A stretch of DNA of 5,592 bases from Octopus sinensis (taxonomy: Eukaryota), in NCBI RefSeq assembly GCF_006345805.1, contig NW_021829989.1, forward strand, positions 1 to 5,592. The letters are read 5' to 3'. The stretch's first letter is position 1, and every line of letters begins with the position of its first letter. The notes beneath the pieces were generated by a model, which was given only the letters and a program-made list of their open reading frames with translations, was not told the origin of the DNA and ran no database searches. Both the position numbers and the translations under genes were made by a program. Positions 584 through 5,564 of this stretch are shown piece by piece.

Positions 584-704
584 CAGTGAAACCTCTCGAA
601 TCCGCTGCTTCTCGAATCCGCCGCTTCTCGAATCCGCTTATTTTAATCAAAAATTTGAAATTTCCTATGAATGATTCTTGAATCCGCTTGTTTCTCGAAT
701 CCGC
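584..704 (+). repeat. Left TIR plus subterminal direct repeats of CTCGAATCCGC
   Basis: CTCGAATCCGC at 595-605, 611-621 and 627-637 (16-bp period), variant CTTGAATCCGC at 677-687, and another copy at 694-704. Confidence 0.93.
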
Positions 705-780
705 TCCTCAAGTATTATGAAAAATAATTTTTTAATTAACATTTTAAAATTTTCATTACACGTTAAATTGTATTTTTGTG

Positions 781-1616
781 ATGCGTCGTTGTGTTAGACT
801 TTCTATCAACGAAAAAATTTCTATACTACGTTATATTTCTGACAACCCATTTGTTTCTGCACCTCAAATTTCCAGGATTTTTTCTTCACGATAAAAAAAA
901 ATTTTAACGAGAACTATAAACGACCTTAAATCAATATCGGACCTTTTGAATAGGACTGATATCAAAAAATTAAACATAATGAGAATTCCAAAACTCAAAT
1001 TTAATGAAATTGATGTAGCGATGATAACATGGATTGACTTAATGGAATCTAGTGAAAGCTCTTAAATTTGGAAAAATGATCCAGAATTTAAAGCAAGTCG
1101 TGGGTGGCTAGAAAAGTTTAAATTACGAAATGGTATCAAGTTAAGAAAATTTCATGGAGACAGTGGATCAGTAAATCATGATGAAAAATCTATTGCTGAT
1201 TTTAATGAAACAATCAGTTTAAAAATTGAACAATATGGATTGGACAATGTTTATAATTCAGATGAAACTGGTGTTTGTTACAAGGCGATTTCTTCTAAAA
1301 GTGTGTGCACTAAATCAAGGCCTGGAATAAAGTTGTCGAAAGATCGATTTTCTTTACTATTATGCACAAATTGTTCTGGTTCCGATAAAAAAAGGCCTAT
1401 AATGATAGGAAGATTCAAAAGTGCAAGATGTTTTTAAAATTTCAACATTGAAAAATATTTTACCTACACCAAATCAATAAGACATCGATGAACCGTGAAA
1501 TTTTTAACAAGTGGCTCAGTTATTTTGATTGTGAACTTGCGAAGAAAAAAGAAAAAATCTACTTGAAATAGATAAATGATCTCGAAAATATTATGCGAAT
1601 TGAAGAAATGTTATAA
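781..1616 (+). pseudogene. pogo/Tigger (CENP-B/DDE_1-like) transposase pseudogene
   Basis: Frame from ATG 781: MRRCVRLSINEKISILRYI... (HTH-like), stop 892-894, ...KFNEIDVAMITWID..., stop 1063-1065, FKASRGWLEKFKLRNGI..FHGDSG (CENP-B-type HTH signature), VYNSDETG (first catalytic D), SKDRFSLLLCTNCSGSDK, stop 1435-1437, then frameshifted MNREIFNKWL and LLEID (second D region). The third-D region is missing. ORF 1240..1437 is a piece of this. Confidence 0.92.
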
Positions 1617-1733
1617 AATTTTTGATATTTTGAATATAAATAATTTTATGTATTCAGTCATTTGTATATAAAAAGAAATATTTAATCTATATTGTAAGCT
1701 CATGTTTCAACTATAAAATATTATTTTAATTGC

Positions 1734-1811
1734 CTCTCGAATCCGCCGATTTCTCGAATCCGCCGATTTTTTGGTCGGTCCCAAAATCGGCGGATTAGAG
1801 AGGTTTTACTG
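1734..1811. repeat. Right subterminal direct repeats plus right TIR, forming a local inverted repeat
   Basis: CTCGAATCCGCCGATTT at 1736-1752 and 1753-1769. Positions 1753-1770 pair with 1783-1800 (17/18) around a 12-nt loop TTGGTCGGTCCC. TIR at 1790-1811. Confidence 0.93.
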
Positions 1812-2266: not shown

Positions 2267-2283
2267 AATTACCAATAATTGTT
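2267..2283 (+). repeat. 5' target-site duplication of the CRE-like element
   Basis: AATTACCAATAATTGTT is identical to 5548-5564 (15 bp if the two leading A's are counted as tail). Confidence 0.93.
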
Positions 2284-2336
2284 CATTTTAACCAAAATTC
2301 AGAAAATTTTTCGGATTTTAGCACGCTGTGGTGTGT

Positions 2337-2512
2337 CCTTTTTTTCTATTATATTCATCCTTCGTATCTTTGTTCACTTTTTCTCATCTTTCCATCTCTT
2401 TATTACCTCTTACTCTCACTCTTAGCCCCTTTTCTATCTTTCCTATCCTCTCTTACTCTTTTTCTTTTTTCATTTCATTTCTTTTCACTCATTCTGTTTT
2501 TTTCTTATATCC
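2337..2512 (+). repeat. Pyrimidine-rich low-complexity tract in the 5' UTR of the retroelement
   Basis: About 175 bp of T/C runs with only a handful of G on the + strand. CTCTTACTCT occurs at 2407-2416 and 2450-2459. The tract ends immediately before ATG 2513. Confidence 0.85.
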
Positions 2513-4855
2513 ATGACACCCAAAACTTCACAACCACCCAGTTGTTTACTTCGTGAACCTACACTTTGCAGGCATTGCCTGTCTTCAGCCCCCAGAAAGA
2601 ACGCACTTCGCTGCTCCTCTTGCGACGAGTATTTCCACCTGTATTGCCTAAATATCCGTAAACGCGAGGCTATGGCACTAAAATGCTGGCTATGTCCCTC
2701 TTGCCTACCTCAGCCTCGCAGAAATCCAAAAATCCCCACCCGGAAACCCCCCGCGGACGCTATTTGCCTGGACGTATTTTCCGCAGAAGATGTCCTCCTC
2801 GCAATTTCCTCGCTCCGCCGCAGCCGCTTTGTGCTCGGAAAAATCCCTAAGGCCGCCCGGCCGCTGGCATCCGAATCTTTGGCCTCTCTAATAAATGACA
2901 TCTTTCTCTCTTCATCCAAATCCACTTGGGTCAGAATCTTCCTATTTCCTCTTCTTGCACTAGGTCTCAGTTACGACCACGAGAAATCAGATCGCTCTCT
3001 CGCCACATCCGTCAAAAACAACATCTCGGACTTTATGGAACAATCAGCTAAGGACGAGTTTCTAAGCTCGATCCTTGCCAGTCATGTCGAAGCCGCAAAG
3101 CGCTTCAATCCCGACGATAGTACAAACGCCGGTACTTCAGGCCTTGACACCGCCTCTCTTGGGCCTCGTATCTTGTCCAAATTGATCGAGGGCGACACCA
3201 GAGCTGCTATGAGAGTTCTGGCTTCCAATAGCGGAGTACTCCCATCGTCCAAAAACGTTATCAACACTTTGAAGTGCAAACACCCCCCCGCCCCTGTAGA
3301 CCTCAGGCCTTTTCCATCCGTCGATTCCACGCCCTCCCCCCCGATACTCACCAACGATGCGATCTTCCGCGCTCTCAAATCTTTTTCACCTAGCAGCAGT
3401 GCAGGCATTGAGGGGCTCCGCCCCAGTCACCTTCGCAACCTCATTTCTCCCTTGATCGGCCCAACAGGCTCGCTGCTCCTAACCTCGATCACGGAACTTG
3501 TCAACAACCTTTTATCTTCAAACTTGTCCGCATTCGCTCGTGGACTCATTTTCTCCGCCCATCTGCTTCCTTTTTCCAAAAAAGACGGCGGAGTTCGTCC
3601 TATCGCCGTCAGGAACATTTTCCGACGCCTGGCTTCAAAGCTCGCCTGCTGGTCGGTCTCCCCGGAACTTGCAAAAGCTTTCCTCCCGTTACAGCTAGGA
3701 GTTGGGGTTCCCTCAGGCTGCGAGGCAGCGGTGCATGCCGCCAGACGCTTTGTGACCGAGAGTTTACATCCCCGAATTCTAGTCAAACTAGACATTACCA
3801 ACGCATTTAACAGTGTCCGCCGCGACTCTGTGCTGGAATCTTGCTTTCTTCGTTGCCCATCCATTTATCGGTTCGTGCACCAAAGCTACGGCTCTCCTAC
3901 TCTTCTTATCTCCGGCTCTTCTACCATTATTTCCGCCACCGGTGTTCAACAGGGCGATCCTCTCGGCCCTCTCCTTTTTTCGCTGGCCATCGATGAAGCG
4001 GTCCGCTCGTGCACTTCTGAGCTCAACGTCTGGTACCTCGACGACGCCTCCATTGGAGGCCCGGCCGATAGTGTTGTAAATGACCTGAACAATGTGGCTC
4101 CGATACTGGCTTCTATAGGCCTTACCGTGAACCCACAAAAATCAGAGATTTTCAATATTGGATACGACCATGCACTCTTTACTCAGGAAATCCAGCCCCT
4201 GTTCGACCATCATCTCCCAGCCATACGCACCGTTCTGTCCGAAGAACTTACTCTTCTCGGTACGCCTCTATTCTCGTCCGGAATCCCATCTTTCCTCCGC
4301 GCTAAACTTCTTAATATGGAAAAATCATTCGACACTCTTAAATCCATCGACGCCCATGTGGCTTTCTTTCTACTGAGGAACTTTCTTGCTTTTCCTCGTT
4401 TGGAGTACGCACTTCGCACTTCTCCCTGTTTCCGATTCCCGGATGCAGTCGGAGAATTCGATTCGCTGCTCAGGAATACTCTCGTTCAAATCTCAAACGT
4501 ACATTTTGACGAAATGGGCTGGAAACAGGCTATCCTGCCTATCAGGCACGGGGGTCTCGGATTCCAAGCCCCCTCGGTCCTCTCCTTGCCATGCTTTCTT
4601 TCTTCCTCTCACCGATGCATGCCTCTCGTAGTCCAGATCCTTCCTCCTCCCTCTGGATCGCTCACGGACTCAGAGCTTTCATACGGCACATCGTTGTGGA
4701 CAGATTGCGGACTAAAAACTCCCGTTGACCTATGCCTTATGCGCGAGTGGACGGAGATCAGCAGCTCTCAGTCTTTCCGGTACTTACTGTCTCACGGAGA
4801 CCAACACCGGCGTGCTTGTCTGTTGTCCAGAGCATCCCCACGGACTGGCGCCTAG
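2513..4855 (+). CDS. Retrotransposon protein, N-terminal part: PHD finger plus non-LTR reverse transcriptase (780 aa, ends at a premature TAG)
   Basis: C4HC3 PHD pattern C19,C22,C34,C37,H42,C45,(W59),C61,C64 at 2567-2704. RT catalytic aspartates in KLD (GAC 3791-3793) and YLDD (4034-4045). QQGDPLGPLLF motif and thumb motif LPIRHGGLG present. Confidence 0.93.
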   Translation: MTPKTSQPPSCLLREPTLCRHCLSSAPRKNALRCSSCDEYFHLYCLNIRKREAMALKCWLCPSCLPQPRRNPKIPTRKPPADAICLDVFSAEDVLLAISSLRRSRFVLGKIPKAARPLASESLASLINDIFLSSSKSTWVRIFLFPLLALGLSYDHEKSDRSLATSVKNNISDFMEQSAKDEFLSSILASHVEAAKRFNPDDSTNAGTSGLDTASLGPRILSKLIEGDTRAAMRVLASNSGVLPSSKNVINTLKCKHPPAPVDLRPFPSVDSTPSPPILTNDAIFRALKSFSPSSSAGIEGLRPSHLRNLISPLIGPTGSLLLTSITELVNNLLSSNLSAFARGLIFSAHLLPFSKKDGGVRPIAVRNIFRRLASKLACWSVSPELAKAFLPLQLGVGVPSGCEAAVHAARRFVTESLHPRILVKLDITNAFNSVRRDSVLESCFLRCPSIYRFVHQSYGSPTLLISGSSTIISATGVQQGDPLGPLLFSLAIDEAVRSCTSELNVWYLDDASIGGPADSVVNDLNNVAPILASIGLTVNPQKSEIFNIGYDHALFTQEIQPLFDHHLPAIRTVLSEELTLLGTPLFSSGIPSFLRAKLLNMEKSFDTLKSIDAHVAFFLLRNFLAFPRLEYALRTSPCFRFPDAVGEFDSLLRNTLVQISNVHFDEMGWKQAILPIRHGGLGFQAPSVLSLPCFLSSSHRCMPLVVQILPPPSGSLTDSELSYGTSLWTDCGLKTPVDLCLMREWTEISSSQSFRYLLSHGDQHRRACLLSRASPRTGA

Positions 4856-5506: not shown

Positions 5507-5538
5507 CTTCCTGTTCCATTTTCTTCTCTTTCGAAATT

Positions 5539-5549
5539 AAAAAAAAAAA
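5539..5549 (+). other. Poly(A) tail of the retroelement
   Basis: A11 run, 32 bp after the TGA stop and directly abutting the 3' TSD. Confidence 0.88.
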
Positions 5550-5564
5550 TTACCAATAATTGTT
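5548..5564 (+). repeat. 3' target-site duplication of the CRE-like element
   Basis: AATTACCAATAATTGTT is identical to 2267-2283. Confidence 0.93.

What the first reader, a model, noticed from the sequence alone, without database searches (positions are those of the whole stretch)
2567..2704. PHD finger at the N-terminus of a single-ORF RLE retrotransposon
Seen: a complete C4HC3 finger with the W two residues before the last Cys pair, in the same polypeptide as RT and RLE. No C2H2 finger or Myb domain is visible upstream of the RT. Established: single-ORF RLE elements (R2, trypanosomatid CRE, NeSL) typically use N-terminal C2H2/Myb domains for DNA targeting; PHD fingers in LINEs are best known from ORF1 of APE-type elements such as CR1/L2, and many PHD fingers read histone H3 tails. 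Inference: this element may choose targets through chromatin rather than DNA sequence, which would fit its landing in a TE graveyard. The finger has Y where H3K4me3 readers have a cage W (CDEYFH) and lacks the usual Met, so it may prefer unmethylated H3 or another ligand. I cannot say whether this architecture is already catalogued.
Basis: partly seen in the sequence, partly recalled or inferred. Interest (0 to 1): 0.75.

Follow-up and report, generated by a model that had tools for sequence, protein, structure and literature searches.

The report
Basic PHD finger on RLE retrotransposon
This is a broken copy of a scattered, R2-like jumping gene whose protein starts with a PHD zinc finger, a trait shared by a whole branch of such elements; the finger is positively charged and lacks the usual histone-mark pockets, so it likely grips DNA or RNA rather than reading histone tails.

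Summary
The PHD finger is real: C4HC3 at exactly 2567-2704, above Pfam's cut-off, and folding like solved PHDs. It heads a CRE-like RT-RLE LINE. This copy has a private stop before the RLE; sister families in the genome are intact. The architecture is not rare: it marks one well-supported branch of relatives and sits in the slot where the sister branch has a C2H2 finger. The chromatin-reader idea is poorly supported. In 62 such fingers the H3 arginine-pocket acid (9 of 62) and cage Trp (8 of 62) are mostly gone, the loop is basic (60 of 62), and median charge is +6 against -3 in controls. Insertions are scattered in AT-rich DNA with differing target duplications, and are not measurably enriched in repeats. 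Best reading: a flexible nucleic-acid tether (inferred, untested). The element lies only on small contigs that likely belong to a co-assembled, dicyemid-like parasite. Side finding: 18 of 210 relatives carry a C-terminal USP deubiquitinase box. Six full-text searches found no PHD-bearing CRE, but Repbase/Dfam were not searchable. The scan noted this architecture before on other DNA, with the same reading.

The parts
2267..2283 (+). Upstream copy of the 17-nt target-site duplication
   Evidence: identical 17-mer at 2267 and 5548
2284..2320 (+). About 36 nt of filler between the duplication and the element's 5' end; matches the unit of an abundant 94-bp tandem repeat; likely picked up by template switching
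   Evidence: mechanism inferred
2321..2512 (+). 5' UTR, pyrimidine-rich, with an internal deletion relative to copies L002 and L014
2513..5506 (+). Single PHD-RT-RLE reading frame of 997 codons, broken by one stop
2567..2704 (+). PHD finger (C4HC3), net charge +5, joined to the body by a low-confidence linker (aa 69-78)
3578..4156 (+). Reverse transcriptase core (Pfam RVT_1 aa 356-548; QGDP and YLDD motifs)
4853..4855 (+). Premature stop private to this copy
   Evidence: 22 of 22 other copies covering the place carry a sense codon
4961..5293 (+). CCHC zinc knuckle and PD..D..K restriction-like endonuclease motifs
   Evidence: motifs read from the translation; no Pfam family matched this part
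5507..5549 (+). Short 3' UTR and poly(A) tail
5548..5564 (+). Downstream copy of the target-site duplication

Best explanation
This is a copy of a recently spread, CRE-like RT-RLE LINE whose N-terminal PHD finger likely acts as a flexible, positively charged grip on nucleic acid (target DNA, possibly nucleosomal, or the element's own RNA) rather than as a histone-tail reader. Shown: PHD fold, basic loop, loss of the K4me3 cage and arginine-pocket acid, same slot as the C2H2 finger of the sister branch, scattered AT-rich insertions with poly(A), 5' truncation and variable target duplications. From established knowledge of RLE LINEs: the RLE nicks, the RT copies the RNA by target-primed reverse transcription. 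Inferred: the finger adds general affinity for DNA, and site choice is left to a loose A/T-rich preference of the endonuclease and RNA tail.
For: 62 family fingers (49 relatives, 13 own genome) against 138 control fingers from 66 non-CRE proteins: median net charge +6 vs -3; acid after Cys3 9 of 62 vs 99 of 138; two adjacent basic residues in loop 1 60 of 62 vs 21 of 138; loop-1 acids 0.3 vs 2.3. The 34 controls with the same helix-type second loop still keep the acid (23 of 34) and Trp (16 of 34). Tree on the RT region: 66 PHD rows in one 68-row branch, sister to a branch with 37 C2H2 of 38; core branch SH-aLRT 100 in a hand-picked 49-row IQ-TREE run. Other modules found in this N-terminal slot are DNA-binding types: C2H2, SAP, nuclear-receptor C4 finger. 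Linker aa 69-78 pLDDT under 50. Shared words of 10 nt or more at 14 of 30 junction pairs vs 3.3% of 870 mismatched pairs, all different, 85% A/T. No repeat enrichment in flanks. Precedent: BAZ1A PHD lacks cage and acids, bound no histone peptides and binds DNA; BRPF PHD2 and the piggyBac cross-brace finger bind DNA (PMC5636791, PMC5861402, passages).
Against: No binding was measured. In PMC5636791 a basic pair was not sufficient for DNA binding, and Drosophila Acf1 PHD1 has one yet binds histones. Acids just before Cys1, the mark of unmethylated-K4 readers (PMC3241642), are as common in the family as in controls (at least one: 41 of 62 vs 93 of 138; the window has one Glu). Eight of 62 keep the cage Trp. 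The nearest folds are H3K4me readers. A conserved T-x-x-Q-A helix (Thr 39, Gln 39, Ala 33 of 49) hints at a specific partner rather than plain charge. The controls are not verified histone binders. The repeat test used a 400-kb library and non-independent flanks, so it is weak.
Confidence: 0.55

Rival explanations
1. The finger reads a histone H3 tail (unmethylated K4 or another state) and steers insertion by chromatin.
For: True PHD fold, nearest to H3K4 readers; acids before Cys1 in 41 of 62; no fixed target sequence; the likely host's H3 keeps residues 1-12 unchanged; the same idea was proposed, untested, for CR1/L2 PHDs (PMC4120745, passages).
Against: Cage and arginine-pocket residues are lost and variable; loop 1 is basic where readers are acidic; flanks are not repeat-enriched.
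Confidence: 0.13
2. The finger binds an acidic host protein surface (for example the nucleosome acidic patch or a replication or repair factor) through its Arg-Lys loop and conserved helix.
For: Arg and Lys at fixed positions (Arg 34 of 49, Lys 39 of 49) and a conserved helix; members of the same branch add a USP deubiquitinase domain, pointing to work on host proteins.
Against: No partner identified; the slot is otherwise filled by DNA-binding modules.
Confidence: 0.2
3. The finger is mainly structural or a nuclear import signal carrier (stabilising the N-terminus or the RNP) and has no targeting role.
For: Basic clusters can serve as import signals (the piggyBac finger overlaps one; PMC5861402); one branch member has swapped the finger for another Cys-rich segment (P0297).
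Against: All eight zinc ligands and surface residues are kept across families only about 35-45% alike, more than an import signal needs.
Confidence: 0.12

Closest known systems
CRE clade of RLE non-LTR retrotransposons (SLACS, CZAR, CRE1/2)
   Same: Single ORF, RT, C-terminal RLE, poly(A) tail, variable target duplications (PMC12278014, PMC3636483, passages). Members of two relatives' 90% clusters are auto-named 'Retrotransposable element SLACS protein'.
   Different: PHD in place of the zinc-finger-like motifs; scattered insertion instead of spliced-leader genes; clade placement not tested against named CRE sequences.
R2 retrotransposons (R2Bm 8gh6, R2Tg 9nl3/9dou)
   Same: Best solved-structure matches of the 780-aa model (E 1e-15 to 1e-14); RT-knuckle-RLE order.
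   Different: Only 15-17% identity; no ZnF-Myb head; no rDNA target.
PHD-bearing CR1/L2 LINEs
   Same: PHD in a LINE; some L2/CR1 subgroups have a single ORF with an N-terminal PHD; function untested (PMC4120745, passages).
   Different: Those use an APE endonuclease; here the PHD is on an RT-RLE protein.
DNA-binding PHD or cross-brace fingers (BAZ1A PHD, BRPF1/2 PHD2, PHF6, piggyBac CRD)
   Same: Loss of cage and acids, basic surface (PMC5636791, PMC5861402, passages).
   Different: Binding is measured there and only inferred here; the basic patch lies in loop 1 here, and near the C-terminus in BAZ1A.
NeSL/Utopia with Ulp1-like protease; Dualen with Josephin-related protease
   Same: RLE LINEs that captured a ubiquitin-family protease (PMC4640811, PMC9977147, passages), as relatives of this element did.
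   Different: Here it is a USP-family domain at the C-terminus, in relatives only, not in the window's element.

Membership tests
PHD finger | C4HC3 zinc ligands with Trp before the last Cys pair | tested here: met
PHD finger | Pfam PF00628 above gathering score; PHD fold | tested here: met
   33.7 bits vs 24; Foldseek top hits all PHDs
H3K4me3-reading PHD | Aromatic cage with invariant Trp, and Met/Tyr before Cys3 | tested here: not met
   Tyr and Ala in the window; Trp in 8 of 62 family fingers (definition PMC3241642)
Unmethylated-H3K4-reading PHD | Acidic cluster before Cys1 | tested here: inconclusive
   one Glu in the window; two or more acids in 16 of 62 vs 40 of 138 controls
H3-reading PHD (both kinds) | Acidic residue lining the Arg2 pocket (taken here as the acid after Cys3; that position is recalled) | tested here: not met
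   Ser in the window; 9 of 62 vs 99 of 138
H3-reading PHD (both kinds) | Measured binding to H3 peptide | not testable with these tools
   needs a binding assay
RLE non-LTR retrotransposon | Single ORF with RT, CCHC knuckle and PD-(D/E)xK endonuclease | tested here: met
   motifs in the window; open frames in sister families; this copy has one stop
RLE non-LTR retrotransposon | Poly(A) tail, 5' truncation, no LTRs | tested here: met
CRE clade | RT groups with named CRE elements in a tree | not testable with these tools
   no named CRE, R4, NeSL or HERO sequence was available; indirect only: SLACS auto-names in relatives' clusters
CRE clade | Target-site duplications of variable size | tested here: met
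   14 of 30 junction pairs vs 3.3% of mismatched pairs
Trypanosomatid-type CRE | Insertion at a fixed site in spliced-leader genes | tested here: not met
   30 junctions share no target; two flank pairs are alike, one a duplicated locus and one a common repeat some way off
R2 clade | N-terminal C2H2 plus Myb and 28S rDNA target | tested here: not met

The most novel reading that the evidence does not exclude
A whole branch of CRE-like retrotransposons swapped its DNA-reading C2H2 finger for a rewired PHD that docks on nucleosomes (acidic patch or a non-canonical tail site), and several lineages in that branch then captured host USP deubiquitinases: a single-protein LINE that reads and edits chromatin at its landing site.
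Probability: 0.15. Interest if true: 0.8.

Novelty: new variant of a known kind. Interest (0 to 1): 0.45.

Why it matters
RLE retrotransposons are being engineered for gene insertion, and their N-terminal modules set where they land. A natural branch that traded the C2H2 finger for a PHD and inserts without a fixed target shows how site-specific elements relax, and offers a small domain on which the untested idea that LINE PHD fingers guide insertion can be tested directly. If the finger only grips DNA, it adds to the short list of nucleic-acid-binding PHDs. The USP fusions would be a new protease capture by LINEs.

Tried and rejected
RING or C1 identity: rejected. Complex prediction of the finger with the likely host's H3 residues 2-33: no verdict (score 0.00, mark 0.34, controls not folded, alignment not used); not used for or against. 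ESM Atlas: no result, sequences not held. Sequencing-run search: no RNA holder listed; contigs of two further studies cover pieces of the element, including the finger, but none spans it. Absence of the P-x-G-x-W motif (0 of 62 vs 47 of 138) was considered as evidence and set aside, because helix-type host PHDs also lack it. The 94-bp tandem repeat as a target or spliced-leader array: rejected; no Rfam match at gathering score, at least 2206 units genome-wide, present in 3 of 40 control windows, and only 3 of the first 30 loci besides the window lie near it. TE-density preference: not detected. The RTclass1 paper was not held under the id tried. The outgroup is a very long branch, so the root and the order C2H2-then-PHD are not established; no AU test was run.

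Full report
Observation. The frame from ATG 2513 encodes a C4HC3 finger at aa 19-64, exactly nt 2567-2704. It passes Pfam PHD (33.7 bits, cut-off 24), while C1_1 stays under its cut-off. By sequence its solved relatives are PHD fingers (45 matches at E up to 0.01), and an AlphaFold model of the finger (pLDDT 82.6) matches AL3, AL1, BPTF and TAF3 PHDs best. An RT follows (RVT_1, aa 356-548), then a stop at 4853-4855, then a CCHC knuckle and PD..D..K endonuclease motifs in the same frame. The stop is private: 22 of 22 other copies that cover it have a sense codon. The 780-aa model (pLDDT 92, linker aa 69-78 under 50) matches R2 proteins first and L1 ORF2p next.

The element in its genome. A DNA search gave 48 matches from 40 scored of 247 candidates, 88-99% alike apart from the window itself, mostly 5'-truncated and ending in poly(A); a 3'-end search gave 40 from 40 scored of 133. 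At 30 distinct junction pairs, 14 share a word of 10 nt or more between upstream and downstream flank, against 3.3% of 870 mismatched pairs; the words all differ and are 85% A/T (three known duplicate loci were dropped, one duplicate pair remained, and a few of the 14 are A/T-rich words that may be chance). The window's own duplication is 17 nt (2267, 5548). So insertion is scattered, with a loose A/T preference. To test the 'TE graveyard' idea I compared 49 flanks of 1.2 kb with 320 tiles from 40 random 10-kb windows on the same kind of contigs: repeat cover 0.242 vs 0.197 (p=0.20), G+C 0.342 vs 0.357 (p=0.04). The library was only 400 kb and two flanks of one insertion are not independent, so this is a weak negative. 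The neighbourhood is simply repeat-rich: CRE-like hits cover 35.8 of 400 kb, in 24 of 40 windows (the contigs were chosen because they carry the element or a PHD hit, so this overstates the genome share).

Which organism. All listed matches lie on small contigs (those checked are 6 kb to 1.3 Mb), none on the chromosome-scale contigs (C1 213 Mb), with the caveat that only the best candidates were scored. The small contigs carry a second, divergent histone H3 (one on C8311, which also holds a copy of the element) and H3 genes with introns of 26 and 29 nt. Among animals such introns are reported only for myxobolid myxozoans and dicyemids (PMC13644364, passages). The nearest named proteins are filed under Octopus sinensis, and Dicyema japonicum was isolated from octopuses and is 49% repeats with many LINE copies (PMC6736024, passages). 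I infer a co-assembled dicyemid-like parasite; this was not binned or confirmed.

How widespread. Of the best 120 relatives, 25 carry the same finger by a strict pattern. Pooling with own-genome frames gave 216 proteins: 59 PHD, 10 partial PHD, 39 C2H2, 9 with a CxxC-H-CxGS finger, 5 other, and 94 truncated or unplaced, which were left out. On the RT region (120 rows plus one long outgroup, FastTree), 66 of 67 PHD rows fall in one 68-row branch (support 92; inner 66-row branch 99), next to a 38-row branch with 37 C2H2. An IQ-TREE run on 49 hand-picked rows gives the core PHD branch 100, leaving two PHD rows unresolved. Exceptions: P0354 and P0076 sit among C2H2 elements with a different PHD in front of the C2H2; P0297 sits in the PHD branch with another Cys-rich segment. 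The root is unsure, so replacement of C2H2 by PHD is the simplest reading, not a shown order. In the own genome 13 distinct fingers of this type were found, with open frames of 964-997 aa in four loci. Named members of the wider group come from a barnacle and moths; most relatives are unnamed.

What the finger can bind. H3K4me3 readers need an aromatic cage with an invariant Trp and often an acidic Arg2 pocket; unmethylated-K4 readers have acids before Cys1 (PMC3241642, passages). I compared 62 family fingers with 138 fingers from 66 non-CRE proteins returned by a profile search (of 150 hits, 31 with a CRE body and 34 under 300 aa were dropped, and 19 gave no pattern match). Median net charge +6 vs -3; acid after Cys3 9 of 62 vs 99 of 138; adjacent basic pair in loop 1 60 of 62 vs 21 of 138; Trp two before His 8 of 62 vs 25 of 138. 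Against my reading: acids before Cys1 do not differ (41 of 62 vs 93 of 138), and the family keeps a T-x-x-Q-A helix that may meet a specific partner. BAZ1A PHD is a precedent for a cage-less, acid-less finger that binds DNA and no histone peptides, though the same paper shows that a basic pair is not enough (PMC5636791, passages); BRPF PHD2, PHF6 and the piggyBac finger also bind nucleic acid (PMC5861402, passages). With the slot otherwise held by C2H2, SAP and nuclear-receptor fingers, a nucleic-acid tether is the most likely role (0.55); an acidic protein partner (0.2), an H3 tail (0.13) and a structural role (0.12) remain.

Family and novelty. The element works like a CRE element: single ORF, RLE, poly(A), variable duplications (PMC12278014, PMC3636483, passages), and members of two relatives' clusters are auto-named SLACS proteins. 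It is not a spliced-leader-targeting CRE or an R2, and clade membership could not be tested against named sequences. Six full-text searches gave no paper describing a PHD on a CRE-like or other RLE-only element; passages read in PMC5678591, PMC4640811, PMC13708176, PMC13580325, PMC9977147 and PMC9940879 do not describe one; other papers were seen as listings only. PHDs in CR1/L2 elements, including single-ORF cases and the targeting idea, are in print (PMC4120745, passages). Repbase, Dfam, subscription reviews and the Fell et al. inventory mentioned in PMC13580325 were not seen, and no supplements were read; any of these may already list the architecture. Three earlier notes of this scan reached the same reading on other DNA (consulted after my reading was set); they are not independent support.

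Side finding. 18 of 210 relatives have a USP Cys box late in the protein, after the RLE where that motif was found, 10 of them with a His box too, in several dissimilar sequence groups; all those placed in the tree lie in the PHD branch. Barnacle members occur as several near-identical proteins annotated as host USP2 or USP38. One paper search and one look-up in the scan's notes found nothing on this. The window's element has no USP.

Verdict. A real, conserved, branch-defining domain swap in a known kind of retrotransposon; the chromatin-reading claim is unlikely on present evidence but cheap to test. New variant of a known kind; interest 0.45.

Noticed in passing
P0293, P0314, P0320, P0330, P0332, P0333, P0355, P0465 and others: USP-family deubiquitinase domain fused after the RLE in 18 of 210 relatives (10 with Cys and His boxes), several dissimilar types, suggesting repeated capture; barnacle copies are annotated as host USP2/USP38.
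   Followed up: partly
L077-L080 (G000 C1, C3, C13, C5): On chromosome-scale contigs, basic PHD-like fingers (net +7 to +10) lie inside an RT, just after the YADD motif region, in an RTE-like LINE (type label recalled); many similar 132-bp hits.
   Followed up: partly
L181-L184, L047, L034 (small contigs of G000): Second set of housekeeping genes: divergent histone H3, introns of 26 and 29 nt, separate PHD chromatin genes; likely a co-assembled dicyemid-like parasite rich in CRE-like LINEs.
   Followed up: partly
window 584-1811: Decayed Tc5/pogo-like DNA transposon with terminal inverted repeats, TA flanks, 16-17 bp subterminal repeats and HTH_Tnp_Tc5 and DDE_1 remnants.
   Followed up: partly
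window about 1955-2160: Fragment of a second RLE element (CCHC knuckle region with stops); R4-like by recall only.
   Followed up: no
window 2284-2320; L026, L005, L013: 94-bp tandem repeat with at least 2206 units, preceded by a (GTCT)n microsatellite in L005 and L013; a piece of it is captured at the element's 5' junction.
   Followed up: partly
P0060, P0348, P0069, P0076, P0354, P0297: Further N-terminal captures in relatives: nuclear-receptor C4 finger ahead of the PHD, SAP domain, an unrelated PHD ahead of C2H2 fingers, and another Cys-rich segment.
   Followed up: no
L008, L010: 5' junctions carry short extra pieces copied from elsewhere in the element, consistent with template switching at the end of reverse transcription.
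   Followed up: no
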